64,000 nucleotides of DNA, from assembly GCA_000004985.1 (NCBI GenBank), contig GG738848.1; one strand, given 5' to 3'. Every line of letters starts with the position of its first letter. Within the stretch, counting starts at the first letter, position 1. Below the pieces are notes generated by a model. The model was not told where the DNA came from, ran no database searches, and saw only the letters and a list, made by a program, of their open reading frames with translations. This document shows positions 1 to 57,993 of this stretch, in pieces. This DNA comes from Naegleria gruberi (Eukaryota). The position numbers were made by a program, and so were the translations under genes.

Positions 1-444
1 AAACCCAAACCCAAACCCAAACCCAAACCCAAACCCAAACCCAAACCCAAACCCAAACCCAAACCCAAACCCAAACCCAAACCCAAACCCAAACCCAAAC
101 CCAAACCCAAACCCAAACCCAAACCCAAACCCAAACCCAAACCCAAACCCAAACCCAAACCCAAACCCAAACCCAAACCCAAACCCAAACCCAAACCCAA
201 ACCCAAACCCAAACCCAAACCCAAACCCAAACCCAAACCCAAACCCAAACCCAAACCCAAACCCAAACCCAAACCCAAACCCAAACCCAAACCCAAACCC
301 AAACCCAAACCCAAACCCAAACCCAAACCCAAACCCAAACCCAAACCCAAACCCAAACCCAAACCCAAACCCAAACCCAAACCCAAACCCAAACCCAAAC
401 CCAAACCCAAACCCAAACCCAAACCCAAACCCAAACCCAAACCC
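1..444. repeat. Telomeric repeat array (CCCAAA)n, 74 perfect units; G-strand repeat TTTGGG
   Basis: Perfect tandem hexamer aaaccc runs from nt 1 to 444. It ends at a unique junction (…acccaacatcgaatatcaaattt…). C-rich strand 5'->3' at the start of a contig is the expected orientation for a left chromosome end. Confidence 0.9.
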
Positions 445-447
445 AAC

Positions 448-5019: not shown

Positions 5020-6400
5020 TTGACATGATATCATAGATTATACTCCAAATCACTCATTTTACATATAACAAGTCTAGAATTGATATCACATAGTCTATAT
5101 ATCAATTAAATACATCTACAATAGTTAAGAAACATTTCAAACTATTTTCATAAAATTAATCAGTAAATGTTCAATATCTGTACACAAACTCCCTCCGCTT
5201 TTTTAACGGGATCCCAACTTTGATGACCCACAACAGAATAGTTACTTAGTGATTCATCATAATTTAACTTATATGGTGTGCGCCTGTATGTTAACTATCA
5301 TCAGAATTGTTTTCAGCAGTTTATGTGTAGTAGGTCGATTGAAAACCTCAATTGAGTGAAAACATATATGAAAATTTCAAAATCCAATAAAACCAGAACC
5401 AGTATATGCCAAGCTCCAAATATCGAGATATGTACTCAAAACATCTTGAAATATAACCACAATCATTGGTTTGTTGATATTTATTGTCTGGACAAAGATA
5501 TGCAGGGTTAAAGTTGAGCTATTTTTCAAACTCAACTCAGTTGAAGTGGAACTGAAATGGAAGGTTGTTTCGGACTGAGTACCAAATAAGCAAATAAAGT
5601 CCAACAACAAATATTTAAAAAATTTAAGTTTTATTATTGTTTCTACAACCAAAACAATATTGGTTGTAGTTGTATGTTCAGGAACACAATATTCACCAAT
5701 GGGAATGTCTTCCTCCTCCATGAGAACCATAACAGGTCATTCAAAGAGAACTGTGATGAGAGCAGAAGTGGCAACAACCATGTGAACGGAAGATAGCTTC
5801 CTGTATTGCTTGCAAGTCTTATCTGGTAGTGTGGTGGGGCATGATGAAGAGAAAGGACCTTGCTAGAGGAGATGTGGTATTGCCCGTAACACGTTGCCTA
5901 TTTTTTTGTTGATGTTGTTTGTTGAAGAGTGGAAATTAACCTGTAAATTAGAATTTGTTAAATTTTTAATGTAACGGTTTTCAAGCGCGCTTGGAAGTAA
6001 AATGGAGGATCCTGTCAAATTATGAGGGATCCCGTTAAAAAAGCCGGTGAATCCCTTCAACAGATATCAACATTATATATATCCTAGTGAACACTCCATC
6101 TCAGTGAAAGTTATTCCAATCATTCTGTAACTTTACCCAATACGTTTAGTCACACTATTTTACATCTGGTATCAATTTCATAGTTTTAGAATTGAATTCA
6201 ATATGATAATAATAACAATCTTTCAAAATATCACATTTCAAAAAAGAGATTACACTCCATCTCAGTCAGTTTACAAAATATCATACTAGTATCAAATATG
6301 AATACACTCCTCTTGATGAGGAGTACAATCTGAGAAAGTTTCAAATTGATGGCTCAGTATCTTCAAGTCACCTAAGTACCTTAGAATAGACAAGTCAATT
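5020..6400. repeat. Subtelomeric segmental duplication, copy D2 (carries an ~850-bp insertion)
   Basis: Same alignment as D1. The 5195-6047 segment has no counterpart in D1. Confidence 0.75.
5195..6047. mobile_element. MITE-like non-autonomous DNA transposon insertion (~853 bp) bounded by ~21-bp imperfect terminal inverted repeats
   Basis: Left end is ccgcttttttaacgggatccc (5195-5215). Right end is gggatcccgttaaaaaagccgg (6026-6047), whose reverse complement ccggcttttttaacgggatccc matches the left end with 1 indel. It is present only in duplication copy D2. No convincing internal ORF (ORFs 5377-5730 and 5863-6060 show no recognisable similarity), and the target-site duplication is not clear. 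Confidence 0.6.
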
Positions 6401-8054: not shown

Positions 8055-11000
8055 TTATTCCAAGTCAACTCTCATTTGTTTTGCAAAGTTAACCTTTAAA
8101 TCCTTCTGTTTCAAAAAGTCATCATATAATTGGGAAGTTATAAATCTTGAGAATGTATCTTCCATATTCAATTCAATCTGTGCTTGCAAATCATTGAAAC
8201 AATCAGCAATTTGCTTTCTCAATCCTCCCTCAGACGAATCCATCATTTCCAAATCCTTATTTTCAACATTCACTTGCTTGTACAAGAGTATGAATTTCTT
8301 TCTGGTCGTTGATGGCACATTCACTTCACAAACAGCATTCGAAACCATGAATAAATCATGAATATTTTTCAAAAAGTCTGAAATTCCATCCAAATATCTT
8401 CCACTTGTGAATAGTTCATTATTCAATAGATAGTCATAGAGATAAATATTTTCAGTTGAGAATTCTGATTGACAGAATTTTTCAAATACTTGACGTGCAT
8501 CTTGATCTTGCAAGAATATTGACAACTTGGAAATATTTCCAATCTTGTCCAAGTTGACCTTCTTTTGAATGTATAATTTGAGAAGGATGAGTAAGGAGAA
8601 ACCACCAAATACCAAAACATAACAGAATTGATACAAAACTTCCATAATAAATACAGCAACATCATATTTGAGTGCTGTATCATAAACAGTAGTTCCCTTA
8701 AATCTATATTCATTACTGGTCAACCCAAGAGATTGTTGAACAATTAGCAAGGCAAAGTAAACCAAATAAATAGCCATTTCAGTTCTAAAGAATAGTGGAG
8801 AATCTAATGAGAAAACTTGAACTCCAGCTCTGCTGACCTTTCCCTTAATATTCGAAATTCTAATTGTGGTCTTCTTTCTTAATGAATTCAAATCGGTTGA
8901 TCCCATCGATTCCAAATTTCTGAAACCTCCTCTACTTCTCTTTCTATAATAAGAAACTGAAATGTCAATAATTGCCACAAGTGAAATAATGATACTAAAA
9001 AGGAAGATAATGACAGTGTATGAAATGGACACAATATATGTATAGGTTTGTGCAGGAATGACATTGGTTCTCACTAAAATTACCCACAAAGTCCAATACA
9101 AAATATTCAAAATTGCAAATGAAATGATTATTGACATGAATACACGAGCAGATGTCAAAACCTTCAAAAATCTGAATCTTACTGAACCTTTCGGTTTGTG
9201 TGTTGAGATTTTTCCATATAAAAGTTTGAGTAATTCAAATCTCACAACTTGAATCACATAGGAAAGAATTGCTGTCAAATTCAAAGTGTTTACAATGATC
9301 ATTGTAACGTTACCAACAATATTCGCAGAATTTTGTTCTTCTTCCCAAATATTGGTATTTGTTTGGAATAAATAGTCAATTAGGACAGATCTCTGAACTA
9401 TGGAAATCAAAATACTTTCTGTCAGTAAAGCAATCATTCCCAAATAAGGTGTAATTAATCTGGACGAAACTGGTTGCTTATTTCTGAAAATAATCAACAT
9501 GACCAATACGAAACCAGAAAGTAATGTAAACACCACACCAAATGCAATCTCAGCATAGTACAGTTTGGAGATTTCCACAGCTTGTGCAATGGTTGGACTT
9601 GATTTGTCATTAGTTCCTGTAACATTAGTTTGTTTGTATTCGATAAATGTGGAAAATTTTGTTGTGTGATTGGAGCTACAGTTGACTTGATTAGCAGTCA
9701 ATCCAATGAATAACATTCCCTTAGTCTTCCAATTTTTACAGGTTTCGTCCCAAAATTTACAAACAATTTCAGTTTCGTTAGTAAACTTGGTAAATTCTTC
9801 TTTGGAAATTGCCAAATTAAGAACGATAGGATCTGCTAAATCAGAAAGTTTTGTCAAATTATAGTTTTGATAATATTTAAAATCAATAATTGAGGATGCT
9901 GTCTTGTTTCCATTAGCATCTACATTCTTGGCATAGGTGACAGATGACAATCCAATGACAGCATTTGTACCTCCAGTTGACTTGGCAATACTTGCAATAT
10001 TCAGTACAACACTACTGTTAAATCCACTTTCCAAAATATTTTTCACAACTGGAGTACTGACAGGTGTGGAATCTGGATTAGTCTGACTGGCAGATGTCTG
10101 AGAAGAATTGGATGGAGCTGTAGTGGTCTGTAACACAATCGTAGCAACAGTTGTGACAATTGCTGGACTTGAATATGTTTCACTTGGAATGGTAACTTGA
10201 GTTTCAGTAGTAGTTGCGGAGGTACTCGTGTTATTCTTATTCGAATCATCAGAAGATGTTGATCCAGTGGAGCTTAATACAGTTGGAACTTGTCCTTTCA
10301 TAACTAGAGTATTAAAAGTTGTCAATGTTTGCTCGACAGTTTCTTGAACAGTGACAGCTGGCGTGGAAGGTGAAGAACTTGAATCAGTTGTTGAAGTGTT
10401 AGTTGAGGTATTGTCTGTACTAATGATATTCGACAAAACTTGCAAAGTACTTGTCAAGACTTCGGTAGAAACCTTTGATTTAACATAACCATAAGTATTC
10501 AGCTCAACTGTGTAAGTGTCAACAACGTTTTCCATGTAAGTATCAACTTTCTTGGTGACTTCTGTTACAATCTCAGTGGTAACCTTCTCAGTTTCCTTAG
10601 TTAGAACATTCAAAGCTGAAAGAGCAGTTTCGGCATTTTCTTGACTAATCTCAATAGCAATGACTTTTTGTAAAATAACTTCTGGAGTAATCTCAATTGA
10701 CTGATCATACAAGAGAACATTCTTCAACTCGTAACATGTTGAATTCATTAAATCTGCAGTCGAATTAGGATAAGAAGTTACAATGACACTTCCAATTGAG
10801 TATTCTTGAAGATTTCCATTAACATCTTGGACAAATGCAATAATTGGAAGAGAATCGTTGGTTACGAATGGAAGCGGAAAGGTTATATCACTAACCGTCG
10901 TGAATTGTGTAATTCTAATAGATTTTTGTAAAGTAGGATGGAAGAAACCATAAGCAAACGAAAGTGGTTGTAATTGGAAATCAGCAATCCAACCACTTGA

Positions 11001-13797
11001 TGAAATATTGAATCTTGTGGCAATAGCAACACCTGTAGATGGTTCAATAGTGATGACATCTGGTATTTTAGGTAAACTCAAAACAGGAATCTCAATAAAT
11101 GTAAAGAAATTTTGTAAACCATTTCTGAAATTCAAATCAACCGTAATTTTTGTAATATCCAATGACTCTAAACTCACAACAGTGCTCAGTGACAATGGAG
11201 GTGACAATAAAATTCCAAATTGATTTCCATTTCCGTTCAACATTCCATTTGAAGATTTCAATAATTGAGTGCTTGATAAACTTCTCAATTTGATTGAGTA
11301 ACTATAACTGAATGAACAATCTTGATAGAGACAATTGAAATCTGAAACTTGAGAATAATCAGATAATGTAATATTGGAAATAATTGCTGATAATTGAACT
11401 TGTTTGGAGGTGTGTAGGTAATAAGTTGGTATTCCATAGGATTCTAGAGATTGAACTGCTCTGAATGTTTGGGAGGTAACCTGTACTACAAAGTCAAACA
11501 ATTGAGATTTGATGGAAGTGTCAATTGTTGTACCATAAAGTGTAAAATAATAGCTACCAGTATTGACATTTGAAAAGTCCAATGAGAAGGAATCAGTACT
11601 TTGGAATGTAGTTACCAACTCACAATTCAAACATATTAATGTAAACATTAAGTTTTGAATTGGATATTCTGTGGCAGTGACAGTAGCTGTCACAACTTGT
11701 GAATCACCCTTGACAATTAAGGTAGATGATAAGGCTGCTGAAACATGGTAGATTAAAATATTTTGACAAACTGAACCTCCGTAAATAGGAATACAAGAAC
11801 AAACATCAGGAGCTGAACATTGACCATGCCCAGAACAAACAACATCTGACACTGAGGAATTTCCATAACAATTGAAGGATTGACATACGTCTCCATAATA
11901 ACCAGCTTGACAGAAACATTTGGTAGATGTCAAGGCCAATCCACCATGTGTACATTGATTAGAGATAGTTTGAGGAACATCATCGCTCAGTAACATACTC
12001 AAACTAAACTGGAATGAAGTTTCTAATGATTCTGAATTGTAATCATAGAAAGAAAGCTTAAACTGATAAGCACCGGCAATATCATAACTATTAAAACTTC
12101 CTTCAAGTGAATATTTCGAATAATTGTAAAAGTTTCTATCAAAAAAATGTTCGAAAGAATTCACAGAGAAACTCTGCACAATAGAACTTGTGGAATTTGT
12201 GTAAATTAAACTGCTAATCTCAAAATGGCTCTCCAGATATAAATCAACATTGACTTTTAGATTGGAATCGAATGAAACTTGGAAATTATTTGGATAGACT
12301 GAGAAATCAAAGTTTTGATTGTCAACAGTCAAAGATTGTGAAATACTTTGAGTGATCATCCACAAGTTAACACTCACAGTCGCATTGTATATATAGTTAT
12401 AACACAAATCACCATGAAAATGACCATCTTGATCAACATATTGAGCTGACAGCGAAATGTCAAGTTTCCAATAATTTCCAAAGGTTGTCTTTCTCACTGA
12501 CGAACTTTCCAACAGTGTACTCAAAGGAATATAATTAGATGTATACGATTGTGTCAGCTCAGTGTCATTCTTTTCTAAAAGTGTCAATTTGATAGATTTC
12601 TCTTCATGATAATTCATACAACCTGTCAAATCATAACCAGAATCATCAGAAAAGAATAACTGATGAGTGTACACATCTGATCTTCCATAATAGGCAATAA
12701 ACTTAATACCACTTCCATCTGGTGAAATAATTCCAGTAATGTTCACATTAGGATAATAATCAATGTCCATAGTTGAGTTGGTTGAGTTATTGTTTGTGGA
12801 ATTATTGTCAATGATTTCTTCGTAGAGTTTGAAGAGTTCTCGTTTGTGAGTGGTACTTGGTTTGGAATGTTGTATTTCGTCTGAATCGTCCATGATAGTT
12901 TTCAATTTGTTATTCGAATCGACCATACGAAGAGAACCAGTTCGTGAAATGTAGAAAATTTCTTCTTCGCCCCAAACTGGAGAAACTCTCAACTTCATAA
13001 CATCTAGGAAGGCATGTTTAGCAAGAGTTTCGTCTGGCGATTCATCGTGATACTTGTTCAATCTCCCACCAATAATATCAAAAGTCAAATCTGGTTGAAT
13101 TCTCTTAATAAAAGTTCCATCAGAACAATAAATTATTCCATGTTTGATGTCAAATGTAAAATAACCAAAAGCTGTTTACAAAGTTCAGTAATAATACAAT
13201 TATTCGAAACTTACTTCCTTTCACATCACGAATAGTACCATCTTCAATCTTTCTAATCAAATTTGTTCTGTAATCGTAGAAATAAATGGTTTCACTCATT
13301 GCGTCTTGAGCCACATGTCCAGGTCGAATACATTCGTCATCATTAGTTTCGTCCTGACATTCATATTTGCTTCCAGCGAGAATGACTTTGTATCCTGAAA
13401 GTAAACGTTTCTTGATGTGATTTCCAGTCGAGTAAATAATTTCATCATATTCAGTCATAAAAAAACTCTGAATTGTTTCTACACTTTCCTCTACAAGAAT
13501 TGACGAATCTCCAAATAAACTAAGCGAACGAATTTGTGTCTTGTTGTGAAGATAAAGCACATGTTGATTCTCCCCGCTTCCATCCACCAACTCTGATATT
13601 TTACATGCCTCTCCACATTCAAATCTTGCAACAATATTGTTATCCTTTAGTTTACGAATTTCTTCTCTATTCGAAACCAATAATTGTCCTTCTTTAGAGA
13701 ATGTGAAGGTGGTGGCAGTTGACTCCACATGGCTGTGCACCAACAACACCAACAACCAAGAAAATACAACCAAGATGCTCAAACAATTGCTTGCCAT
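8055..13797 (-). CDS. Adhesion-GPCR-like receptor with C-terminal RGS domain (signal peptide, beta-propeller-like N-terminus, EGF-like Cys repeats, S/T-rich stalk, GPS motif, 7TM, RGS); 2 exons
   Basis: Exon 1 is 13215-13797, from ATG; N-terminus MASNCLSILVVFSWLLVLLVHSHVES is a signal peptide. A 43-nt GTAAGT…AG intron lies at 13172-13214 (phase 1). Exon 2 is 8055-13171. EGF-like CFCQAGYYGDVCQSFNCYGNSS…CSGHGQCSAPDVCSCIPIYGGSVCQ. GPS-like CKFWDETCKNWKTKGMLFIGLTANQVNCSSNHTTKFSTFIEY immediately before seven hydrophobic helices. C-terminal FEKFCQSEFSTENIYLYDYLLN…FSRFITSQLYDDFLKQK matches the RGS-box consensus. Confidence 0.75.
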
Positions 13798-15061: not shown

Positions 15062-18000
15062 ATGAAAGAACCCGTCCAAAAATTGTCGCAGCATCAGCAT
15101 AATTATCAAGCACTTTATCATCTTCGGATTAATCATATGAAATTCTTATTCACCCTTATTAAAATCATTATACTAGCAACAACAACAATAATATTATTGA
15201 GTAGTAGTAGTGACAGGTTCTTATTAGTGGTTCTCTCGAGTAGTACGAGTGGTATTATCAATATTTCGCCGAAAAATCCACAACTTGACTCGGTGCAGTG
15301 GAATGATGAGAGGGAAATTTGGTTTGCACAATCTTGTCCTCTTTCTGGATCGAATAAGAGGTGAGTATTTTCATCACCATCATTGATAATTAATTTTTAT
15401 ATATTATTGATCTGTTTCAACGCTTGCAAATGAACTGTTCACTTCCTTAATATATATTACAACATCATTAATAATTTTTAACTGCTTGCACACATGTATA
15501 TAAAAGATTGGGCATTGAAATGAGGGATGGAATATTGGCTGCCTTTCATGAAGCCAATTCAATAGGAGGCATTTGGGGCTCTAAGAAATTAAAACTATTA
15601 ACTTTTGATGATGCCTACGAACCAACCAATACTAAACAGAATACCGACTTTTTCCTATACAATATAACACCACCGAATACTTCCCTTAATTATGAATCCT
15701 ATTTTTCACAGAATTCCCAATACAGAGAACAGATGAAGAATGTGAAATTGTTTGGATTGTTGGGATTTGTGGGAACACCAACAACTCAGGCTGTATTTGG
15801 AGATGTCGTTTCGAATTCCTTTCCTTTGATTGGGCCTTTTACTGGGGTTGGTTGGCTGAGAACACCATTCTACCCGAATGTTATTAATGTGAGAGCTTCC
15901 TACGATGATGAAACAGCTGCTATGGTCGACTGGCTGATAAATGTCAAGCTCATTAGAAAGATTAGTGTCATGTATCAAGCTGATAGTTTCGGTCAAGCTG
16001 GTTTGAATGGAATTAAACGAGCTTTGGTCGATTATCTCAAAATACCAATTCGCTCCATAGGTAGCTATCCAAGAAACACTCTTCAAGTAGAAGATGCATT
16101 TGCTGAAATTGGTAAAGGTTCACCTTCAGCAATAGTTTGCATTGGAACTTATGCTCCTCTGGCTAAATATATCAAAATGGTAAAGAACATGGCATTTGCA
16201 ACGAATGGAAATAATAATGGATATGAAAATGCTCAGGAAATAATCATCCTGACTGTTAGTTTTGTTGGTTCTTCTGCTTTGGTAAGTGAATTGCAGTCAA
16301 GCGCCCCAATTTCAAACAAGTTTGGCTCAAGTTATTATACAGACAATGTGGTCATTACACAAGTGGTTCCTTCACCATTTAATTTGAGTTATCCTATTGT
16401 GAGATCCTATCAAAAGGCAAGAAAATCATACATACTTTCGAATAATCCTTCGGCTAATCTTTCAGATTTTGTTCCCTCTTTCATAGAACTGGAAGGATAC
16501 ATTGTAGGAAGATTTGTAAACAGTGTGCTACAGAAAATGTCTGGAAATTTGACCAGATCAAACTTTTTAGCGACTTCCTATTTTGGAGGAAGTAGAGCTG
16601 ATGTTACAATTGCAGATTCTTCAATAGGAGATGCATCTGGAGGGGTTTTCAATTTTGATGGAATGCAATTGGGACCTTATAGATGGTGTGACTCAGTCAA
16701 TCTGATCGATATGAATTTACCTTATTCTAATGGTTTCGTATTACCAAGTCAAACTTCGGCCAGCAATAGCAGCGCATGTTCTTCTTTCAATTGTAATCAA
16801 GGAATGAAAGTTGTGTACAAGAGCTCTATCGACATCAAAAACTCCTCAGTTTCCTTTTCTGTATTTGGTGATTTATTTTCTTGGTATAATTACAAATCTG
16901 GAAGCTATTGCATTTCAGATCCAGTTCTTGTAAAGAAACCTCTTTTATTTGGCCAATCAATTAATACAGCATCAGGTGATTTCACTGAAGAACTCATGTT
17001 AAGAAAAGGAATTCTGGCTGCATTCGCTCTTCACAATCAAGGATTGACGTCAAATCAACAAAAATTAGAACTCTTAACAATGTATCATTCAGGAACAAGT
17101 GAAATGTTGAAGAATACGAAGGAATTTGTAGAGATTCATCATGCTCTTGGATTATTAGGATATTCTTCAACTAATTTGAATGTTGACATGTTGTCGAAAG
17201 CAATGACAGACAATTCATCTCAACTGAATGGTATTGCATTGGTGGGAACTGCTTCTACTATTAATTCGATGGATTTCAGATCAAGTTTCTTCCAAAATAT
17301 TATTCACGTTCATAGTTCCATTTTAGAACAATTAGGAACTATTGTGGATTACTCAATTAACACTCTAGGTAGAACAAGAATATCCATTGTTTATAGTAGG
17401 AATCAAGATTCGATGGCAGCTTATTCGATTCTTAACGAAATATTGTCAAGTTTAGATTTAAAACTTGATTCAGAATCGTGTATTCAAAACGAAACTTTTA
17501 TTTCAACTGATACAATCATCAGCGATCTATCTTTGAATGGAGCTAATCCTCAAATCATCATCTTTGCATTCCCTTCAAATGTAAATAATATTGGATCAAT
17601 CATTTCTTCCATTCAACAAACTTTTTCAACAGAACCAAAGTTTAGAAATGAATTGACCATATTTATGATCAATTCATTCTTTAAAGAAAATGTAGAGGTT
17701 GAAATATTACCTTGGATTTCATCTCCCAAGTTGGATAATGTCAAACTAATGTACGTGTCACATGTTCCATCCATAAATGGAACAGCTCACATTTCCATTG
17801 AAAAGTTTAAGGCAGCTATGGAGCTCTACTCTCCAGATCTTTCAAATTTATACAATACCAAAGTGTTGGAAGGTTTCTTTATAGGAAGTTTCATCAGTAC
17901 AATTATGGAAAATCTTGGAAATGAACCAACAAGTCAAAATTTAATCGAAACTATTTATAAGGTAAAGACATTTATCAATTTCCAGACTACTTTTGGTGCA

Positions 18001-20532
18001 TTTTCAGAGTCTTCCACAAGTCCATGTAATTTGGGAATGAGAATGAGTTATATTTATGGGCTTTCGAATAGTGGAGTTTCAGAGATTGCCACGAGAGATC
18101 ATTCTTCAAATTGTGGACTACACAGCTATGTTTCAACAAGAACTTCTGTCATTCACAGTAAGATAGATAGACCAATCTTACTTGGAAGATTAATTCCATA
18201 CAAAAAGGATGAAAATTCATTGCAAAATAAGATTGAATTGCTGAGTGAAGTTTCGACAATTGACATGGATGATTATGCCAGAGGATTGACTACCTATCTA
18301 AGTTATTTATCCTCAAAACAGTCTTACCAAAGTGTCAAGACCAAGAAAATCCACTTACTCACCGAGTATTACAGTTTAACCTCAAGTGGCAAAACTTTTT
18401 CGGACAAGTTGACAGCTCTCATCCAAAAGAATAAGATTTTCGCTCTCGTTGGTTCCATCATTAAATTCGACGAATCTACACTTAGCACTAATGACAAAAT
18501 AGATCAAATCTCCAAAATCCTTTCGAATAACAATATTCCACTCATTGATTCTCTGACAGGAAGTATTCGAATGAGGAAACCTTTTTCACAAATGTTTGTA
18601 AACATTGGTCCTTCGTTGTTGGATCAAGGAATTGCTTTTATTAATTATGCAAAGAGTAGATTTGGTCAAATTGCAATTGTTTATCAAGATTCAGAGTATT
18701 GGAAAGGAGCTTTGGATGAGATTGTAAACTTTTGTAGAATTGAATCGATTACAATAGGTCAATTGAGAGCTATAGATATTTTCAAGTCAATATCAGATCA
18801 AACAGATCATTTTGAGTCATTTTTGAAGGAGAAGGAAGATGTGGCTATATTTATTTTGGCAAATGACGTTCATTCAGCTGAAATTGTTAAATTGACATCT
18901 GTCACACACAAGGCAAATAGTTTTACTAATAATATCTTGTTTGGAATTCCTGTAGAGTCTGCTACCATTGATTTTGAAAGTGCAGTGATGAGCTGTTCCT
19001 CCCTTAGAAATGAAACATCTCCCTTGATTAGTAGTTTCGTTTCTGGTAAATCAGATTCTGAACTAATGTCAATTGTCAGCTCTTACATTTCATCAAACAA
19101 GTTATTAATTACCAAATCCATGTATTCACCCAACTACATCTCCCAAACTCATGATCAATACTCATTTTCCACAAGATTTTACACTCAATTTGCTGAATTT
19201 TCAAATTACCCAAAAGCAAATTATTTCACATTCGAAGGATACGTGATGGGTTACTTTATAGACATGATGATGGGTAGTATCTATCAATCTCAAGGTATAT
19301 CTGATCAAATATCTGATATTGCCTCTCAAGATTTATTAGACGCAATTTATTCAAATTCAGTTTTTGATATAATCTTTAAAAAGATTGGTCCTATGGGATA
19401 TACATGTTCTAACAATACAGAGGCAAGATCTACATGTGAAGATTCTTCCACTTTGGTTGTTGGTTGTGGGTGCAATCAGGGAGCCAAAGCGGTCTATTTG
19501 TCTGGATTGGCCAATTTCACACTTTCTTATAATCAAACTAATCTCAATTTCTTTGACATTTCTGATTATTCCCTGACTTTCAGAACATGTGGAGTTGAAG
19601 CTGTCGTTCCTTCCTTGTCCATCATTGCCATTATTTTCATTGTCATTGGTTCCTTACTCGCTGTATTTATCCTAATCCTTTCTCCAATTCTGAGCTATCG
19701 TTATTACATCTCCAAAAAGGCAATTAAGCATGCACCAACTTCCAAGAATGGTAAATTAGCTTGCTGTTTCACTGATGTCCAAAACTCTACCGTTTTGTGG
19801 CAATCCAATGAAAAGGCAATGAGAGAAGCTTTAGTCATTCACAATCAAATAATGAGACGAAACTTGGAATTATGCAATGGATTTGAAGTCAAGACCAATG
19901 GTGATAGTTTCTTTGTAGTTTTCAAAGATCCAGTCGATGCACTTGATTGGTGTGTCTCTGTCCAACATGATTTACTACATGCCAAATGGCCAGCTGATTT
20001 ATATAGTATGTGGGATTGTAGACCTGAATGGGATGAAGAAAGTAGACGAATGATGTGGTCAGGGGTGAGAGTTAGAATGGGATTACACTATGCACAGGCT
20101 GATTATGTCTTTGATAAGGTCATGAAGAGACCTGATTATTTTGGAACTTGTGTGAATACTTCTGCCAGAGTGGAGGCAATGGCCCATGGTGGACAGATTT
20201 TAGTGACTGAGGAATTCTTTTTGGAAACATGGAGGATTATGAAGACATATTTGTATTCGAATGTAAAGTTTCAGGAGCAGAATTATTATGGCTATGTCCA
20301 CGATATAACTTTGGCCATGTCGAATCCGTTATTGAGCCAAACTGCTTCCTTTACGCAAGATTCAAGTTTCAATAATACGAATAATACGAATAATACTTCA
20401 ATGGTTTCTGGAACTCAGAGTTCTTCGAGTGGAAACACTTCAAAAACTCCAAAGAGTACAGATGTTTCCAGAAAGTTAAATCTGAACGCTGCTTCTAAAC
20501 GAAAGAGACCTAAACATGCTGAGATGATTTAG
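15062..20532 (+). CDS. Receptor-type adenylate cyclase: signal peptide, large periplasmic-binding-protein-like extracellular domain, single TM, class III nucleotidyl cyclase domain; 2 exons
   Basis: Exon 1 runs to 15360. In-frame ATGs at 15062 (MKEPVQ…) and 15137 (MKFLFTLIKIIILATTTIILLSSSS, signal-peptide-like). Donor aag ag|gtgagt at 15361, acceptor …ataaaag| at about 15506 (phase 2; junction uncertain by ±1 nt). Exon 2 runs to the stop at 20530-20532. TM region is AVVPSLSIIAIIFIVIGSLLAVFILILSPIL. The cyclase domain KLACCFTDVQNSTVLWQ…EVKTNGDSFFVVF…GVRVRMGLHYAQADYVFD…YFGTCVNTSARVEAMAHGGQILVTEEF matches class III cyclase motifs (metal-binding D, transition-state N/R). Same architecture as trypanosomatid receptor ACs. 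Confidence 0.8.
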
Positions 20533-20561
20533 GTGAATACACGCTCAAGGGATTAGAAGGC

Positions 20562-20951
20562 ATGACTCGTTTATTCCAAATCAAATCTGAACTGATGCAA
20601 AAGAGAGTTTATCCACCTTTGAAGAATCAACCAGAAGCCCTTTCTAAAGAGAATAGTTCAGTTGCTGTCATTCCAACACCAATGGGACCTCAAGACAATG
20701 ACTCGGTTGAAGTTGGACATTTTAAGAAGGTTCACCGATTGAGTAATTCAAATATTGTGAAGAGTTTACCACATTTTGAGATGGAGATGGGCGAAATTGA
20801 AGCTGAAAGAATAACAGATAGTATTCCTTCATTGAGAAGGTCCATGTCGAGGAAAAATCATAATAAGATTATACCAGCTGCTGATGATAATATGGTTAAT
20901 TTGGTGGATGAAAATGCTTCCACGAGAGCAGAGGTGGAAACTGTGAGGTAA
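20562..20951 (+). CDS. Hypothetical 129-aa protein directly downstream of the cyclase stop (could be 3' UTR)
   Basis: ATG-initiated ORF MTRLFQIKSELMQKR… with no recognisable domain. It ends at a donor-like GGTAAAT. There is no GT donor upstream of the cyclase stop that would join it to the cyclase gene. Confidence 0.25.
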   Translation: MTRLFQIKSELMQKRVYPPLKNQPEALSKENSSVAVIPTPMGPQDNDSVEVGHFKKVHRLSNSNIVKSLPHFEMEMGEIEAERITDSIPSLRRSMSRKNHNKIIPAADDNMVNLVDENASTRAEVETVR

Positions 20952-25318: not shown

Positions 25319-27421
25319 CTATTGAGACAGAGTTATCATTTGAAAATCTCTTAATTGTGAACTGGTTGGTCTTTGAGATGGATCCTTCTTTAACATGGAA
25401 AGCACGAATTGAATGAGTGATTCTGAATATGGAATGGATTGTCGTTTGATTTGAGAGTAGAGTTGAGAGAGGACTTGATCTTCATGTTCTGAGAGGAGGT
25501 GGGTGGCTATTATGTATTGGAGTGAATCATTGGTCATGAGTTGGTAAAATGAAACACCGAGAGAGAAAATGTCAGATGGCATTCCATAATTTTCATTTGA
25601 AAGACATTCAGGAGACATGAATGCAACTGTTCCCTTTACAGAATTGTTTTCATTACTAATTTCCTTAGCCTCTCCATAATCTCCAATAACTAGCTCTATA
25701 CTATCGATGAAAGGATCGAAGCTGTCAACAAAAATGTTCTTTGGTTTCAAATCTCTGCATTTCCAATATTATTTTTCAGTTTAGGATAAGAATATTAATA
25801 TATTTTCAAATGAATTATACTAAACCTACCTATGGAGAACATTCCTATTAATGTGAAGATATGACAAACCATCTCCAATTTGATTAATTACACTAATCAT
25901 GAGTTTCTCCGAGAATATTCCATTAATTTTCAAACACTTGTCCAAATCTCCCTTATAATATTTCATTACCAAACAAAGAGCATTATTGAGCCTCTTGGAA
26001 ACAAACAACTCATAAACTTCAACCAATCTAGGATGTTTGAATGAGAGAGTCTTTGAACATTCATCAATTGCCTTTTCCATTTCATTATCCGAAACTCGAA
26101 TGCACTTGATGGCAACCAATCGATTAGAGCTCTTGGTATCCTTACACAGGAAACAATCTCCAAACGATCCCGATCCAATCTTTTCCAAAACTTCATATCT
26201 ATTCTTTAACAAATTATTATTCACATCATCGGTGGAACTTGTTGAGGTCACAGATTGTTGATTAAATGAATTTGTAGTTGTGGTGGTATTAGAATTGTTA
26301 GTTCTTAAAGTATGATATGTATCAATCGAGGAATGAGTTTCAATTTCGTGGTCTGAGAATATGACTGGATTATGCATGTTGAGTGAGACAGATTTTTGAG
26401 TATTTGCATTGGACGAAACTGTATTCGAGTTCAATAATTCGTGGTGATGTTCCTCCAAATGAGGAGATTCCTTCTCTTTCTTTTTGCAACTTTTCACAAC
26501 ACAGCAACCAATTAATGAACCAACTGACAGCACAATAATAAAACAAATAATTGAACCCAAAACTATGGCCACAATGATAATTATCTGTGTAATATCTAAG
26601 GATGAGGCGGAATAAGCTTCAATATTGTAAACTATTGGACATGTGTAATCATTGCAATGAATTCTCACATAGAATGGAACATAATTTGATGAGGTTATGT
26701 ACAAATCTGGAACATTAATTGGAAAATACGTATAGGGAGGAGAAGGTTGAACATTTGAAGAACTTTTCACAAACGAAACTCCATCAAACGAAAGAGAAAC
26801 TGCTACCGAAACTGATGTTTTTCCTATTGCTGCAGTTTTCAGTCTCACAGTTGACTTTCCATTAGTGAGACAGGTTTTACAGACCAATTCCTCTGCATCA
26901 TTCATGGACATGGTGAGAGTTGTGCTTTGAGAAGAAAGTTTGACTTCGTGCCAGAATTTTTCCACAACAAAATATTGAATTCGAATAGTTTCGCTACTCG
27001 ATGGATTAAACAAGACGAAATAAGATTCCAATCCTGTATATAATCTGAATTGGGATACCGATGCTGAGGTTGCATTACTAGCCAAAATCTTGAATGTCTG
27101 ATGATACTTGTCAACTTGTAATTGAGGATAGAGAGTTACTGGAATAACACCCATCACTAATTTACCAGTTGCTTGGTATTCCAAACGGAAATATCCATAC
27201 TGATAACTTGTATTATAATTCACAAATTGCAAAGGACCCAATTCATAGTCAATGATAATGTCATTCAGCTCTGTGTTCATTCCGCATGTCAATTTACAAG
27301 ACATCAAGAGCACTATCAATACCATAACTATCCATCTGATGGAAAATACATCAAAAACTCTGCAGATGAAACTGCCTTGCAATCTTCTTGTCTCGTTTGA
27401 TAACAGTTCTGGTTGCGACAT
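25319..27421 (-). CDS. Single-pass receptor-like Ser/Thr protein kinase (signal/anchor, ~250-aa ectodomain, TM, kinase domain); 2 exons
   Basis: ATG at 27421. TM is IIIIVAIVLGSIICFIIVLSVGSLIGCCVV. Kinase subdomains: GSGSFGDCFLCKD…AIK (Gly loop and VAIK). The catalytic loop HR|DLKPKNIF is split by a 76-nt GTAGGT…AG intron (25753-25828, phase 2). DYGEAK stands for DFG, then SPE and the C-lobe. Confidence 0.8.
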
Positions 27422-46292: not shown

Positions 46293-49200
46293 TTAATTAA
46301 AGGTTGTTTCCAGATTTTGATTATCAGCAGCAATCAAATCAGTTTGCAATTCGTCTGATTCTGCTCCATGTTTCAAAAATTCATCCAGGACATATTGTTG
46401 CTCAGCTTTGGAAATGTTAGATTTAGCATGATGCTTGGCACTCAAAAAGTAGCTTTGGGTTGGTTTTCCTTTAATCTCAATCTTCCTCTCCTCAAATTCA
46501 AAATCCAAATCATACACTCTCTCATAAGTTGATCTTGATAAATGAATCCTTCCAGGTTGAGAATTTGATTCCATTCTGGATCCAACATTAATAGTTTCCT
46601 AGAATGACATGTTTAAATATCAACAATACAGTATTGAAATACTTACACCCCACAAATCATATGCAAATTTCTTGGTGCTATTATTTGTTAATATTTAAAT
46701 TTCTAGAAACACTTACCCAATCACTCCAGCAATTGCAGCTCCAGTATTGATACCCACACGAATATCTACTTGATTAAAGTCAGAACTGGAAAAGGTATTT
46801 GCTTGAACTAATTCTTTCATTTTGGAAAGATTGAATTCTCTAATGACACTAAAAGTTTCAATACTAAATCTGAGTACTCTTTCTGGGTGATCACTAGCTT
46901 GCATCTATTAAATTATTATTAGAATTAAAAGAAGAAATGAATTATATACATACCAATCCTCCAACACAGAAATATCTAAATATTCAAATCCATAGAATTA
47001 ATGTCATAAACTAGAGTCTCGAATTTACTTACGCATCTCCAATAGTTTTAATCTTTTCCAATTCATACTTGTCAGTCAATTTATCGAATCCTGTAACAAT
47101 TGTACTCAACATTTGAACAACATCATTGGCACTAAGTGAGCTAGATAATTTAGTAAATCCAACCATGTCACTGAAAAAGCAAGTGATATCAGGCAACTTG
47201 TCAGCAATTAATTTCTCTCCCTAAAATAGATTAGATATTGATAAATATAAATAAATGTAATACTTACACTTTTCAATTGTCTGGCAACAGATTCTGGTAA
47301 CACGTTTCTCAGTAACTTTTCAGAATTCTTCTTCTCTTCAGCTAATAATGATTTTGACTTGTTTTCAGATGTGATATCTCTTATGAAACAGGTAATGACT
47401 CTGTTATTATCGAATAGAGTGTAGGAAATGCTCACTCTAGCTGGGAAAGTAGTCCCGTTCTTTCTTATACATTCCAAATCTAAAGTTTCTCCCTGAATGG
47501 CATTCTTTTCTGAGGCTAGTGAAGAATCTACTTGAACTCTATTTTCAATCAACTTTTTAATTGTTTCCTCACAATTTGGATTGAAGAGAGACCACAATGG
47601 TTTTCCAATTACATCCTCAGGCAATTTACCAAACATTCTTTGGGCTGCAGGATTGTAAACTTCAATATCATAATCATTACATGATACTGCTCCATCTACA
47701 GCAGAATTAAGAATGGACTTGACCTTTAAATCTTCAACCTCCTTCTTATTGAGACTGTTCGCGCCTCTAGAGGAGGAAAATATCTTGTGGTATAGAACAT
47801 AATTTCTCATTTCATCCTTTGCTTCCAAATGATCAATCTTGATATAGTTCAGCAACATTCTCACAGTTTGAACCTCATTAACATGTTTGTCAAAGGAGAG
47901 GACAAGTAAATAGCCAAACAGTGGAACTAAAAAAAATCCAATAACTCCAAATATTGTTACAATAGTAGAACTGTTATCTCTTTCTATGGAACTAACGTAA
48001 ATATTCATAAATTGTTCGAATTCCTTTGCCAACACTTTACAATCAGTGAAAAGTGCATGGAACTCTGGGAATATACTGTACATGTCCTTGTTCTTAGCAT
48101 TGTGCTTTTCATTGATAATAATTGATTCCAGATAGAGTTCATTCATCTTATCATTCAAGCTTGTACACTTCATGGTAGTCGAATTTGAATTTTCACAGTG
48201 AGCTCCCTTGATGAGATTGTCAACCTCAGAAAATAACCCAATTAGTGGCGCAGCATTGGTTGTAATATCGCCATACAATAGCAAATTCCACTCCTTACTA
48301 ATCTTCTTCTTGATTTCATAAACTGATTCATGATATTCAACAACTTCATCCATTGAAAGTAATTTCTTAGAGTTGATTGAATATGTATCGTACGGAAGAA
48401 CAGAAAATATTAAAACCTCTCCAACTTTCCCTGTAATATCATGAGCATCTACTGAGATTGATGCAGAACGTTCCACATTTCTCATAATTCTCTCAGTTTT
48501 ATCAGAGGTAACAAAAACTTCATAAAAGAACATGGAAAAACACAAACAAGTAGTAATGAAAATAAGAGTTGTAAATAACGATGCTCTAAACTTGGGATTG
48601 TTGGTAAAGTTGGATTTGTATGCTCCCTCTCCATTCTCTGCATATTTCGTAGCCATTTGGTGGTAGATCTTTCCAAGAGCATCTTTAGGAATTGTCTTTT
48701 CAACGAGTTTTAACACGGATTTCAAAGATCTCATTATCAACAAGTTGAATATCAACATTAGACCACAAGATATTACTAGTAATCCCAAAGAGCAGAAATA
48801 AAAGTACATGAAAGCATTATTGGTATTACTGACAGTGGCATAGGATCTATCTACAATGTTTGAGCAAAACTCTTTGAATACTGAACTGAAAATATCTCTA
48901 TTGTGCCAAAAATACATGGCTTTGTAATTGGAGAGAGTATTGTTATACTGCTGAGGTGTATAGGTATTGATTTCCTTTAAAAATTGTATCAAAGTGTTGG
49001 TGATTGCTGAAATGGAAGTGTTAAATTGATGTGCAACAGTGTATTCTCCTGGGTATGGACCAATAACAGGATTATAGAAAAGGACACTACTCTCTGAATA
49101 ATCATGAAACATGTCATCACTCATTAAGTCATTCAGAGCGCTGTTTTGAAGCTCCTGTAATGAAGCTAATACATCTCGAATTCTTTCTTTGTGCTCAGTT

Positions 49201-57610: not shown

Positions 57611-57993
57611 TTATAATAGTAATTTCGGATTAGTTTTTATAATATAGTATTCAACAATTTCATTTCAATTTTCTGTATATACAACCTCATTGTATAACAC
57701 AACATTACCCATTGTGTGGGGAGCATATCGAACGATTCGATATCAAGAACTCTTGTGTCAATAAAAAATATTTAATTAATAATGAATTGCTCTCTCTCGC
57801 TCGCTCAAATGCTCAAGAAGTAACATCCTCGCACTTTCTCACTCGAAAATTTCAATTGAATCAAATTATTCTTATTATTGAATTATTCCAAAATATTTGT
57901 TTGAATCAATTTCATAGTATTTGTTTGTTTGGTCAAGACTTTATGTTCTCGCAAAAAGTAGAACTCCATCAATTTACTTCTTTAAAACTTTTG

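What the first reader, a model, noticed from the sequence alone, without database searches (positions are those of the whole stretch)
15062..20532. Trypanosomatid-style receptor adenylate cyclase (PBP-like ectodomain - 1 TM - cyclase) in an intron-containing AT-rich genome
The ~1,100-aa extracellular region has the mixed alpha/beta composition of periplasmic-binding-protein or ANF-receptor-like domains. It is followed by a single TM and a class III cyclase domain (FTDVQNSTVLW…NGDSFFVVF…NTSARVEAMAHGGQILV), with no kinase-homology domain. This is the architecture of kinetoplastid ESAG4/GRESAG4-type receptor ACs. Its presence here, beside another sensor cyclase (46293-51668) and other receptors, points to an expanded cyclase repertoire.
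Basis: partly seen in the sequence, partly recalled or inferred. Interest (0 to 1): 0.55.

Follow-up and report, generated by a model that had tools for sequence, protein, structure and literature searches.

The report
Naegleria receptor adenylate cyclase, frame broken
This is a Naegleria gruberi gene for a cell-surface receptor joined to a cAMP-making enzyme, the same design as trypanosome receptor cyclases but with three ligand-binding modules instead of two; it belongs to a known kind, and in this sequence two extra bases break its reading frame near the end of the enzyme domain.

Summary
The window is the telomere-proximal 64 kb of a Naegleria gruberi NEG-M scaffold. The finding is a real gene, but its limits need correcting. 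Exon 1 runs from 15137 (or 15062) to 15360, a 146-nt GT-AG intron covers 15361-15506, and exon 2 starts at 15507. The product has a signal peptide, three tandem homologous periplasmic-binding-protein (Venus-flytrap, VFT) modules of about 1,385 aa together, one transmembrane (TM) helix, and a class III cyclase domain about 25 residues after the helix. There is no kinase-homology domain. All catalytic residues are of the adenylate type. The best solved-structure match is T. brucei GRESAG4. Module 1 matches the first VFT of GRESAG4-type cyclases at E 1e-57. Three things differ from that reading. There are three VFTs, not two. The cyclase core groups weakly with fungal Cyr1-type domains. The stop at 20532 is premature: two extra bases near 20524 shift the last conserved strands (DLGEYTLKG...) and a conserved tail into another frame that stays open to 20951. 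Whether this is an assembly error, a null allele or a young pseudogene cannot be decided here. GenBank annotates only a 164-aa cyclase fragment at this locus. Verdict: a new member of a known kind, of modest interest.

The parts
15137..15360 (+). Exon 1. Likely start ATG at 15137; an in-frame upstream ATG at 15062 is an alternative. Encodes the signal peptide (residues 1-25, 15137-15211) and the first strand of flytrap module 1 (EIWFAQSCPLSGSNK).
   Evidence: Translation and splice model. Hydrophobicity peak 2.46 over residues 1-25. Aligns with the N-termini of P0002, P0003 and P0005 and with exon 1 of L001.
15361..15506 (+). Intron 1: 146 nt, GTGAGT...AAAAG, phase 2. The split codon AG|A encodes Arg75.
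   Evidence: Sequence. The spliced product has no stop and matches the paralogues across the junction. The homologue L001 has a 41-nt GTAAGT..TTAG intron at the same position and phase.
15308..16926 (+). Flytrap module M1 (model residues 58-548, interrupted by intron 1). It is LivJ-type PBP (Peripla_BP_6) and the most conserved module.
   Evidence: Pfam PF13458, 1.4e-17. PDB 4kv7 at 3.2e-33 and 3lop at 1.2e-13. Mean pairwise identity in the family is 57%, against 34% and 31% for M2 and M3. hhalign against the first flytrap of GRESAG4-type cyclases gives E 1e-57.
16927..18168 (+). Flytrap module M2 (model residues 549-962).
   Evidence: hhalign M1/M2 98.5% (1.5e-15) and M2/M3 99.5% (5e-23). AlphaFold2 model with pLDDT 79.7 and pTM 0.84. 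Foldseek PDB hits: 4m88 1.4e-17, 4kv7, LivJ 4gnr, and GABA-B, mGlu and sweet-receptor flytraps. Weak PF25493 hit of 16.8 bits.
18169..19608 (+). Flytrap module M3 (model residues 963-1442), next to the membrane. It ends with CGCNQGAKAVYLS...FRTCGVEAVV.
   Evidence: Pfam ANF_receptor, 29.5 bits in the whole protein. hhalign. AlphaFold2 model with pLDDT 67.4 and pTM 0.71. Foldseek hits 4kv7 at 3.5e-10, CaSR, mGlu5 and LivK.
19609..19692 (+). Single transmembrane helix (about residues 1443-1470, SLSIIAIIFIVIGSLLAVFILILSPILS).
   Evidence: Kyte-Doolittle 19-residue window peaks at 3.36. It is the only strong hydrophobic segment besides the signal peptide.
19732..20223 (+). Class III cyclase catalytic core (model residues 1484-1647). 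It is identical to GenBank EFC49143.1 / XP_002681887.1 'predicted protein, partial'. Catalytic residues: D1498 (19774-76), K1537 (19891-93), D1541 (19903-05), R1598, D1618 (20134-36), N1625, R1629.
   Evidence: Pfam PF00211, 8.4e-16. PDB 1fx4 and 1fx2, 1.7e-22. 100% identity to P0024. Residue mapping.
20260..20496 (+). Low-complexity Ser/Thr/Asn-rich insert inside the cyclase domain, lying between the GGQ helix region and the last strands. Includes an (AATAATACG)x2.9 repeat at 20371-20396.
   Evidence: Alignment A2: the insert is present, with variable length, only in the heterolobosean sequences; the fungal ones have a shorter insert. Tandem repeat.
20521..20532 (+). Frame break. GCT GAG AT GAT TTA GGT has two bases too many (for example 20524-20525), compared with GCT GAG GAC ATG GGT in L001. 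This creates the premature TAG at 20530-20532.
   Evidence: Three-frame translation. Homologue alignments. Codon-level comparison with L001. No consensus-donor intron can bridge the shift.
20526..20951 (+). Displaced end of the gene. It encodes the last strands of the cyclase fold (DLGEYTLKGLEGMTRLFQIKS, with K1755 at 20547-49) and a C-terminal tail with the conserved motif NHNKIIP (20856-20876). Stop TAA at 20949-20951.
   Evidence: Matches LGxxxL(K/R)G...(L/M)(F/Y)Q of GRESAG4.3, the paralogues and bacterial cyclases. The motif [KNH]N[RK][IV][IV]P is shared with L001, P0002, P0004 and P0005. The frame is open for 141 codons, reached in 1 of 100,000 shuffles; the other two frames have 10 and 19 stops.

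Best explanation
The locus is a Naegleria gruberi gene for a type I membrane receptor-type adenylate cyclase. It lies about 14.7 kb from a chromosome end. The product has a signal peptide, three tandem type I periplasmic-binding-protein (Venus flytrap) modules outside the cell, one transmembrane helix, a linker of about 25 residues carrying an 'APxxK'-like motif, and a class III cyclase homology domain with a complete adenylate-type catalytic set. The proposed mechanism is inferred from what is known of class III cyclases and flytrap receptors. The cyclase domain is active only as a head-to-tail homodimer with two symmetric active sites. A small ligand closes the membrane-distal, most conserved flytrap (M1). 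This changes the packing of the ectodomain dimer, and the change passes through the single helix to bring the two catalytic domains into register, so that ATP is converted to cAMP. M2 and M3 are diverged copies that act as a stalk, as a dimer interface, or as extra binding sites. In the sequence as given, two extra bases at about 20524 cut off the last two strands of the catalytic fold, including the conserved Lys of the LKG motif. This copy as written would therefore encode an incomplete and probably inactive cyclase, unless the insertion is an assembly error or is confined to one haplotype. Shown here: gene structure, domain composition, folds, catalytic residues, the frame break and the organism. 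Inferred: dimerisation, ligand gating and product.
For: Organism and locus: five window ORFs are exact matches to N. gruberi NEG-M proteins on a 712,659-bp scaffold, and the cyclase core equals EFC49143.1. Gene model. Three homologous modules: hhalign 98.4-99.5%. Folds. Topology. Cyclase: PF00211. The best PDB hits are GRESAG4.3 and 4.1 at 1.7e-22, and the alignment runs through the insertion region. D1498, D1541, R1598 and R1629 fall in invariant columns; K1537, D1618 and N1625 match GRESAG4, whereas the guanylate cyclase P0018 has Glu at the Lys position. Link to GRESAG4-type receptors: a profile search with M2+M3 alone recovers two-flytrap, PF25493-positive cyclases, and M1 matches their first flytrap at E 1e-57. 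Trypanosome cyclase ectodomains were already shown to be Leu/Ile/Val-binding-protein homologues (PMC2386149). Frame break.
Against: There are no expression, activity or ligand data. The frame break means the product as encoded lacks part of the fold. The closest homologue, L001, lacks the whole catalytic core, so this subfamily may be losing cyclase function. The M3 model is of only moderate confidence (pLDDT 67.4). The window's own match to the trypanosome-derived family PF25493 is below threshold (16.8 against 27.2 bits). The NJ tree does not place the core within the euglenozoan clade.
Confidence: 0.85

Rival explanations
1. The gene is intact in the organism. The two extra bases at about 20524 are an error of the reference assembly, or occur in only one haplotype of a polyploid, heterozygous strain. 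In that case the real product is the 1,888-aa full-length receptor cyclase.
For: The displaced frame is open for 141 codons (1 of 100,000 shuffles). It encodes the conserved last strands and the conserved C-terminal motif NHNKIIP. There is no other lesion in 5.6 kb of coding sequence.
Against: The site GAGATGAT is not a homopolymer, where indel errors usually occur. The nearest homologue also has a lesion in the same part of the gene. The locus is subtelomeric, and by general knowledge family members often decay in such regions. No independent reads could be examined; a metagenome scan for the site found nothing.
Confidence: 0.45
2. The locus is a very young pseudogene, or a null allele, of an expanded subtelomeric receptor-cyclase family. 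It makes at most a truncated protein whose cyclase domain lacks its last strands.
For: The frame break lies upstream of an indispensable part of the fold, including the LKG lysine. N. gruberi has other paralogues: P0002, P0003 and P0025. The gene is 14.7 kb from a TTTGGG telomere array. In L001 the 797-bp segment that encodes the catalytic core is absent and the tail is again out of frame.
Against: The 5' 5.4 kb and the 3' 0.4 kb show no further decay, so inactivation would have to be very recent. This is the same evidence that supports the error/allele reading.
Confidence: 0.4
3. The protein is a cyclase gated not by a specific ligand but by membrane, osmotic or acid stress that drives dimerisation. 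This has been reported for T. brucei cyclases and for Dictyostelium ACG. On this view the flytraps serve mainly as a dimerisation scaffold.
For: T. brucei receptor cyclases are activated by acid, hypotonic or proteolytic stress, and no ligand is known for them (PMC6027212). ACG is described as an osmosensor structurally related to trypanosome cyclases (PMC9928731). M2 and M3 are poorly conserved (31-34%).
Against: M1 is as conserved as the catalytic core (57% against 61%). It retains close similarity to a bacterial solute-binding protein (4kv7, 3.2e-33) and to the first flytraps of protist 7TM receptors. That pattern suggests a preserved binding pocket.
Confidence: 0.25
4. A cryptic short intron removes part of the low-complexity linker and restores the frame, so the sequence is correct and the gene is intact.
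For: Introns in this lineage can be as short as 41 nt. Several GT...AG pairs of the right phase exist, for example 20456-20523.
Against: None of the candidate donors resembles the GTGAGT or GTAAGT seen at the confirmed introns. Every candidate would delete the basic KRKRPKH segment, which aligns with RKRY/RAAR in the homologues. L001 reads straight through RYLAEDMGEF in one frame.
Confidence: 0.05
5. The enzyme is a guanylate cyclase, like metazoan receptor guanylate cyclases.
For: Pfam PF00211 does not distinguish the two activities. M3 matches ANF_receptor, the flytrap family of natriuretic peptide receptors.
Against: The specificity positions are Lys1537 and Asp1618, as in GRESAG4. They are not the Glu/Cys type seen in the guanylate cyclase P0018. 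There is no kinase-homology domain.
Confidence: 0.05

Closest known systems
Trypanosomatid receptor-type adenylate cyclases (T. brucei ESAG4 and GRESAG4.1/4.3; Pfam architecture Peripla_BP_6 + PF25493 + Guanylate_cyc)
   Same: Both have a signal peptide, a LivJ-type flytrap ectodomain, one TM helix, a cyclase domain directly after the helix, and no kinase-homology domain. Both have adenylate-type catalytic residues. Both carry an insertion at the position of the trypanosome delta-subdomain and a second 7-residue insertion, neither of which is in bacterial relatives. Both have an 'APK/APT' motif before the domain. The first flytraps are clearly homologous (E 1e-57).
   Different: This protein has three flytraps instead of two. 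Its insertion at the delta position is shorter, about 21 aa against about 38 aa. It has an extra low-complexity insert of about 85 aa before the last strands. Its cyclase core does not fall inside the euglenozoan clade in an NJ tree. Its own PF25493 score is below threshold. The organism is a free-living heterolobosean.
Naegleria paralogues and orthologues already in databases: N. gruberi P0002 (1,647 aa) and P0003 (1,711 aa) 'predicted protein', N. lovaniensis C9374_011605 (P0004), N. fowleri P0005
   Same: They share the full architecture, are colinear over 93-96% of the length, have the same three modules, and carry the same inserts and C-terminal motif.
   Different: Overall identity is only 38-42%. 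Those models are in frame through the end of the cyclase domain, whereas this locus is annotated only as a 164-aa fragment and carries the frame break.
Fungal Cyr1-type adenylate cyclase catalytic domains (P0017, P0019, P0020)
   Same: The cyclase core is 33-35% identical in the full A2 alignment and 38-42% in the local BLAST hits. Both share the insertion positions and the WP..L and RRMDYFG motifs. They are a weak sister group in the NJ tree (62%).
   Different: Cyr1 is a cytosolic Ras-, LRR- and PP2C-linked enzyme with no ectodomain and no TM helix (Pfam domains).
Metazoan receptor guanylate cyclases (natriuretic peptide receptor A)
   Same: Both have a flytrap (ANF_receptor) ectodomain, a single TM helix, a class III cyclase domain and dimeric signalling logic. 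NPR1 chains are matched by the cyclase profile at 8e-12.
   Different: NPR-A has one flytrap, a kinase-homology domain and guanylate specificity. None of these holds here.
Protist tandem-flytrap 7TM receptors (class C GPCR-like; P0008, P0009, P0011) and the algal flytrap-kinase-guanylate cyclase P0018
   Same: They share the M1-type first flytrap, with motifs GxVGTPT, FTGxxxLR, RASYxDETAAM, YQxDSFG, TVSFVG, TQVVP and LEGY. Each module ends in the same CNQG...TCG motifs.
   Different: The output module is a 7TM_3 domain, or a kinase plus guanylate cyclase, instead of a single helix plus adenylate cyclase.

Membership tests
Class III nucleotidyl cyclase (Pfam PF00211) | Profile match above the curated threshold | tested here: met
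   58.5 bits against a cutoff of 21.9, residues 1415-1569 of the ORF.
Class III nucleotidyl cyclase (Pfam PF00211) | Two metal-binding aspartates | tested here: met
   D1498 (FTD) and D1541 (GDS) lie in invariant columns of a 19-sequence alignment.
Class III nucleotidyl cyclase (Pfam PF00211) | Transition-state Asn and Arg, plus the conserved Arg of RVRxG | tested here: met
   N1625 and R1629 (VNTSAR) and R1598; R1598 and R1629 are invariant.
Class III nucleotidyl cyclase (Pfam PF00211) | Adenine-specifying Lys/Asp pair, as opposed to the Glu/Cys pair of guanylate cyclases | tested here: met
   K1537 (EVKT) and D1618 (PDYFG) align with the K and D of GRESAG4.1/4.3. The guanylate cyclase P0018 has E at the Lys position.
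Class III nucleotidyl cyclase (Pfam PF00211) | Complete fold, including the C-terminal strands (LGxxxLKG...YQ), encoded in one reading frame | tested here: not met
   The strands are present (20526-20588) but lie in a frame shifted by two bases. The upstream frame stops at 20530-32.
Class III nucleotidyl cyclase (Pfam PF00211) | Cyclase activity as a dimer | not testable with these tools
   Needs enzyme assays.
Trypanosomatid-type receptor adenylate cyclase (ESAG4/GRESAG4) | Large N-terminal ectodomain of LivJ-type PBP/flytrap domains behind a signal peptide | tested here: met
   M1 against the first flytrap of PF25493-positive cyclases gives E 1e-57.
Trypanosomatid-type receptor adenylate cyclase (ESAG4/GRESAG4) | Two flytrap domains (Peripla_BP_6 followed by PF25493) | tested here: not met
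   There are three modules. The reference proteins P0169, P0189, P0200 and P0207 show a Peripla_BP_6 domain followed by a full-length PF25493 domain, and the literature says two (PMC6027212).
Trypanosomatid-type receptor adenylate cyclase (ESAG4/GRESAG4) | Match to the family-specific ectodomain profiles PF25493 and PF25495 | tested here: inconclusive
   The window's M2 scores 16.8 bits against a cutoff of 27.2. The relatives P0001, P0004 and P0006 pass at 28.9-36.5 bits.
Trypanosomatid-type receptor adenylate cyclase (ESAG4/GRESAG4) | Single TM helix followed directly by the catalytic domain, with no kinase-homology domain | tested here: met
   One TM segment. About 25 residues lie between it and FTD. 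There is no kinase hit.
Trypanosomatid-type receptor adenylate cyclase (ESAG4/GRESAG4) | Delta-subdomain insertion in the catalytic domain | tested here: inconclusive
   An insertion sits at the same position but is about 21 aa long, against about 38 aa. Fungal Cyr1-type domains also have one there.
Trypanosomatid-type receptor adenylate cyclase (ESAG4/GRESAG4) | Catalytic domain falls within the kinetoplastid/euglenozoan clade | tested here: not met
   In the NJ tree with 100 bootstraps, the heterolobosean clade has 100% support and is weakly sister (62%) to fungal Cyr1-type domains. The method is rough and taxon sampling is limited.
Type I periplasmic binding protein / Venus flytrap fold | Two-lobed alternating beta-alpha fold matching LivJ-type PBPs, for each of the three modules | tested here: met
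   M1: PF13458 and 4kv7 at 3.2e-33. M2: Foldseek 1.4e-17, TM-score up to 0.79. M3: Foldseek 3.5e-10, from a moderate-confidence model.
Type I periplasmic binding protein / Venus flytrap fold | Conserved ligand-contacting residues or a known ligand | not tested
   No reliable mapping to a liganded structure was made. No publication on 4kv7 was found.
Metazoan receptor guanylate cyclase | Kinase-homology domain between the TM helix and the cyclase domain, and guanylate-specific residues | tested here: not met
   No kinase domain. The Lys/Asp specificity pair is present instead.

The most novel reading that the evidence does not exclude
The three-flytrap receptor cyclases of Heterolobosea and the two-flytrap GRESAG4-type cyclases of Euglenozoa descend from one ancestral flytrap-TM-cyclase receptor. 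If so, the 'hallmark of trypanosomatids' would be an old Discoba (or older) invention, built from a flytrap module that other protists couple to 7TM or kinase outputs. In addition, this particular subfamily may be shedding its cyclase output while keeping the ectodomain: N. gruberi has the frame break, and the closest homologue has a 0.8-kb deletion of the catalytic core. That would mean it is evolving towards cyclase-less flytrap receptors or decoys.
Probability: 0.3. Interest if true: 0.5.

Novelty: new member of a known kind. Interest (0 to 1): 0.3.

Why it matters
Receptor-type adenylate cyclases with flytrap ectodomains are usually presented as a trypanosomatid speciality, and their ligands are still unknown. 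A clearly related family in a free-living, culturable heterolobosean offers a comparative handle on how flytraps gate a single-helix cyclase. In this family the first flytrap is as conserved as the catalytic core and closely resembles bacterial solute-binding proteins. There is also a practical point. The public N. gruberi annotation holds only a 164-aa fragment for this locus and a 151-aa fragment for a paralogue. Domain-architecture surveys of Naegleria cyclases therefore under-count receptor-type members. The reference sequence also has a frame break here that should be checked. None of this changes the known picture of cyclase biology.

Tried and rejected
(1) Exact look-ups of window proteins and of P0024 in the contig index found nothing. 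The organism was settled by cluster look-up instead.

(2) The third homologue search, seeded with the GRESAG4.1 catalytic sequence, returned only fragments of 305 aa or less. No named full-length trypanosome cyclase was therefore available. Unnamed GRESAG4-type proteins from the exhaustive profile search were used in its place.

(3) hhalign of three trypanosome juxtamembrane fragments against M1-M3 found the matching position in M2 and M3, but only weakly (E 0.004 and 0.044; probabilities 8.5% and 1.2%). It is not used as evidence.

(4) Intron rescue of the frame break was tested. All phase-compatible GT..AG pairs of 40 nt or more were listed. None has a consensus donor, and all would delete conserved residues.

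(5) A metagenome scan for the frameshift site with a variable gap gave 0 hits.

The delta-type insertion and the packing of the last strands were therefore not modelled.

(7) The PDB profile search with A2 is circular for GRESAG4, because that alignment contains GRESAG4.3. It is cited only for the NPR1 match.

(8) Literature searches for Naegleria or Heterolobosea flytrap-cyclases found no description of them. Searches for 4kv7, 3lop and 4m88 found no ligand information.

(9) Orthology of L001 was not established. tblastx matches only the receptor gene and no flanking genes.

Full report
ORGANISM AND LOCATION

Five ORFs of the window are exact matches to proteins of Naegleria gruberi strain NEG-M, all on one 712,659-bp scaffold (EFC49146, EFC49150, EFC49153, EFC49289 and others). 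The window starts with 74 perfect copies of AAACCC at positions 1-446. This is the complement of TTTGGG, the candidate N. gruberi telomere repeat (PMC3622300). The window is therefore the terminal 64 kb of a chromosome-end scaffold, and the gene starts about 14.7 kb from the repeat. Base composition is about 33% G+C throughout.

GENE STRUCTURE

A 1,674-codon ORF runs from 15508 to 20532 on the + strand. Upstream, an ORF in another frame encodes MKFLFTLIKIIILATTTIILL...EIWFAQSCPLSGSNKR. The two join through a 146-nt intron at 15361-15506 (AG|GTGAGT ... AAAAG|A, phase 2). The junction reads NKR|LGIEMRDG. This is the sequence of the N. gruberi paralogue P0003 (SKRLGIEMRDG) and of N. fowleri P0005. 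The closest homologue in the databases is L001, from a Logan assembly. It has a 41-nt GTAAGT...TTAG intron at the same codon position. The ATG at 15137 directly precedes the signal-peptide-like segment and is the likely start.

THE END OF THE GENE IS NOT 20532

All homologues continue after the GGQ(I/V)L region with a variable linker, and then with DLGEF(K/R)LKGLQ...RLF(E/D)(I/V)(K/R)S. These are the last strands of the class III cyclase fold. They align with LGATVLRGVPEPVRMYQL of the crystallised GRESAG4.3 construct and with the same element of bacterial cyclases.

In the window this element, DLGEYTLKGLEGMTRLFQIKSELMQKRVYP, is present. It begins at 20526, in a frame displaced by two bases from the upstream frame. 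At codon level, L001 reads GCT GAG GAC ATG GGT (A E D M G), while the window reads GCT GAG AT GAT TTA GGT. The window therefore has two bases too many, and they create the TAG at 20530-32.

The displaced frame is open for 141 codons, to the TAA at 20949-51. Only 1 of 100,000 shuffles of that stretch stays open that long, and the other two frames have 10 and 19 stops. About 110 codons downstream, the displaced frame encodes NHNKIIP. This is a copy of a C-terminal motif, [KNH]N[RK][IV][IV]P, that also occurs in L001, P0002, P0004 and P0005.

No GT..AG pair of suitable phase has a consensus donor, and every candidate would remove the conserved basic segment. The frame break is therefore either an error or allele of the reference, or a very recent inactivation. 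I could not examine reads, and a pattern scan of metagenomes found nothing. With the two bases removed, the model is 1,888 aa long.

DOMAIN ANATOMY

Hydrophobicity analysis gives only two strong segments, residues 1-25 and about 1443-1470. The region between them consists of three modules: M1 (58-548), M2 (549-962) and M3 (963-1442). Profile-profile comparison shows they are homologous to one another. M1/M2 scores 98.5% (E 1.5e-15), M1/M3 98.4% (7.5e-15), and M2/M3 99.5% (5e-23), over 310-384 columns.

- M1 matches Pfam Peripla_BP_6 and the solved Leu/Ile/Val-type binding protein 4kv7 at 3.2e-33.
- M3 carries the ANF_receptor match.
- M2 had only a weak hit, so I modelled it. The model has pLDDT 79.7 and pTM 0.84. 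Its Foldseek matches are type I binding proteins (4m88 at 1.4e-17, 4kv7, LivJ) and the flytraps of GABA-B, mGlu and sweet receptors.
- The M3 model is weaker (pLDDT 67.4) but gives the same families.

Each module ends with a C..CN(Q/L)G motif. Conservation is uneven. Mean pairwise identity is 57% for M1, 34% for M2 and 31% for M3, against 61% for the catalytic core.

About 25 residues after the helix comes the cyclase domain (PF00211, 58.5 bits). Pfam finds no kinase domain.

CATALYTIC SET

The mapping uses a 19-sequence alignment and coordinates.

- Metal-binding Asp: D1498 and D1541.
- Conserved Arg: R1598.
- Transition-state residues: N1625 and R1629.
- Adenine-type specificity pair: K1537 and D1618.
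- Lys of the LKG element: K1755, which lies beyond the frame break.

Compared with bacterial relatives, the domain has an insertion of about 21 residues where trypanosome cyclases have their delta-subdomain of about 38 residues, and a second 7-residue insertion. Fungal Cyr1-type domains share both positions. A low-complexity insert of about 85 residues before the last strands is specific to the heterolobosean proteins.

RELATION TO TRYPANOSOME CYCLASES

The best solved-structure matches of the cyclase domain are GRESAG4.3 and GRESAG4.1 (E 1.7e-22), well ahead of bacterial cyclases at 4e-6.

An exhaustive profile search with M2+M3 only, omitting M1 and the cyclase domain, found 737 representative proteins at E <= 1e-3. 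Of the 142 newly returned proteins among the best 150, 26 carry a cyclase domain. They fall into two sets: a window-like set, and a set whose cores are closest to GRESAG4.3. Members of the second set have the architecture Peripla_BP_6 + PF25493 (84-168 bits in P0169, P0189, P0200, P0207 and P0254) + Guanylate_cyc. These are GRESAG4-type receptors with two flytraps, which agrees with the literature (PMC6027212; PMC2386149). Their organisms are not known.

M1 of the Naegleria family matches their first flytrap at probability 100% and E 1e-57. That is far better than M1 matches M2 or M3. M2 is the best match to their second flytrap, at 1e-15. The window's own score on PF25493 is below threshold, while three relatives pass it.

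In a neighbour-joining tree of catalytic cores, the heterolobosean proteins form a clade with 100% support. That clade is weakly (62%) sister to fungal Cyr1-type domains, and the euglenozoan sequences form a separate group. The method and the sampling are too limited to settle the deeper branching.

The same M1-type flytrap and the CNQG/TCG motifs also occur in protist tandem-flytrap 7TM receptors and in an algal flytrap-kinase-guanylate cyclase. The flytrap module is therefore shared among several receptor types.

WHAT WAS ALREADY KNOWN

The catalytic core of this locus is in GenBank as EFC49143.1 / XP_002681887.1, 'predicted protein, partial', 164 aa. No database protein matches the ectodomain at more than 50% identity, so the full gene model appears to be unannotated. 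Full-length paralogues in N. gruberi, N. lovaniensis and N. fowleri are annotated as predicted or hypothetical proteins. The large number of Naegleria cyclases is published (PMC9928731). I found no paper that describes flytrap-cyclases in Heterolobosea.

MECHANISM

The design is a flytrap ectodomain, a single helix, and a homodimer-dependent class III cyclase carrying all catalytic residues in one chain. From it I infer ligand-controlled, or possibly stress-controlled, dimer rearrangement that aligns two catalytic domains to make cAMP. M1 is the likely sensor. This is inference from established knowledge of class III cyclases, natriuretic peptide receptors, class C GPCR flytraps and trypanosome cyclases. 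Nothing here tests activity or ligand.

VERDICT

The copy in this sequence has a broken frame whose cause cannot be determined here. The gene is a new, previously mis-annotated member of a known kind, in a genome already known for many cyclases.

Noticed in passing
window 1-446: There are 74 perfect tandem copies of AAACCC at the very start of the window. This is the complement of TTTGGG, the candidate N. gruberi telomere repeat (PMC3622300). The window is therefore a chromosome end, and the receptor-cyclase gene is subtelomeric, about 14.7 kb away.
   Followed up: partly
L001 (Logan SRR25266747 contig, 12,743 bp) 5073-5355, compared with window 19576-20627: This is the closest homologue (50% identity, with an intact 1,399-aa ectodomain-plus-TM ORF). 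It lacks the 797-bp stretch that encodes the catalytic core and linker in the window. Its TM helix is followed by RKAIMCTWLEISS*. The conserved tail (RYLAEDMGEFTLKGLEGTTRLFQIKS...KKNRIVP) sits in another frame and is still open for 165 codons. No flanking synteny with the window was found, so orthology is unproven.
   Followed up: partly
window 19732-20223 (GenBank EFC49143.1); also P0025: The public N. gruberi protein set holds only a catalytic-core fragment for this locus (164 aa) and for a 68%-identical paralogue (151 aa). Receptor-type cyclases are therefore under-represented in domain-architecture surveys of this genome.
   Followed up: partly
window 8055-13797, - strand: A 1,677-aa ORF lies head-to-head with the cyclase gene. 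It has EGF/teneurin-like repeats, a GPS (GPCR proteolysis site) motif and a C-terminal RGS domain. A 215-aa ORF upstream of it (13150-13797) has no Pfam hit. It looks like an adhesion-GPCR-like receptor fused to an RGS domain.
   Followed up: no
It is a 1,486-aa multi-TM ORF with TPR_TmcB and PAS domains, followed by at least three short exons that encode a different class III cyclase domain (FFSDMVGFT...KTIGDA; DIRVGINTGAAIAGVIG; MESNSQPGRIHLS).
   Followed up: partly
P0018 (Pseudoscourfieldia marina, 2,854 aa); P0008, P0009, P0011, P0012: The same M1-type flytrap and the CNQG...TCG module endings occur in two other receptor types. One is a green-algal protein with tandem flytraps, a TM helix, a protein kinase and a guanylate cyclase. 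The other is a group of protist proteins with two tandem flytraps and a class C-type 7TM domain. One ectodomain cassette thus appears to be coupled to several output domains.
   Followed up: partly
window 20371-20396: A short perfect (AATAATACG)x2.9 repeat encodes the NNTNNTNNT stretch inside the low-complexity insert of the cyclase domain. The insert varies widely in length among the homologues.
   Followed up: no
window 25826-27421 (-) and 57712-59544 (+): Two further signalling-type ORFs are present: a 531-aa ORF ending in the N-terminal half of a protein kinase domain, which probably continues in another exon, and a 610-aa ORF with two BTB_2 (potassium-channel tetramerisation-type) domains.
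   Followed up: no
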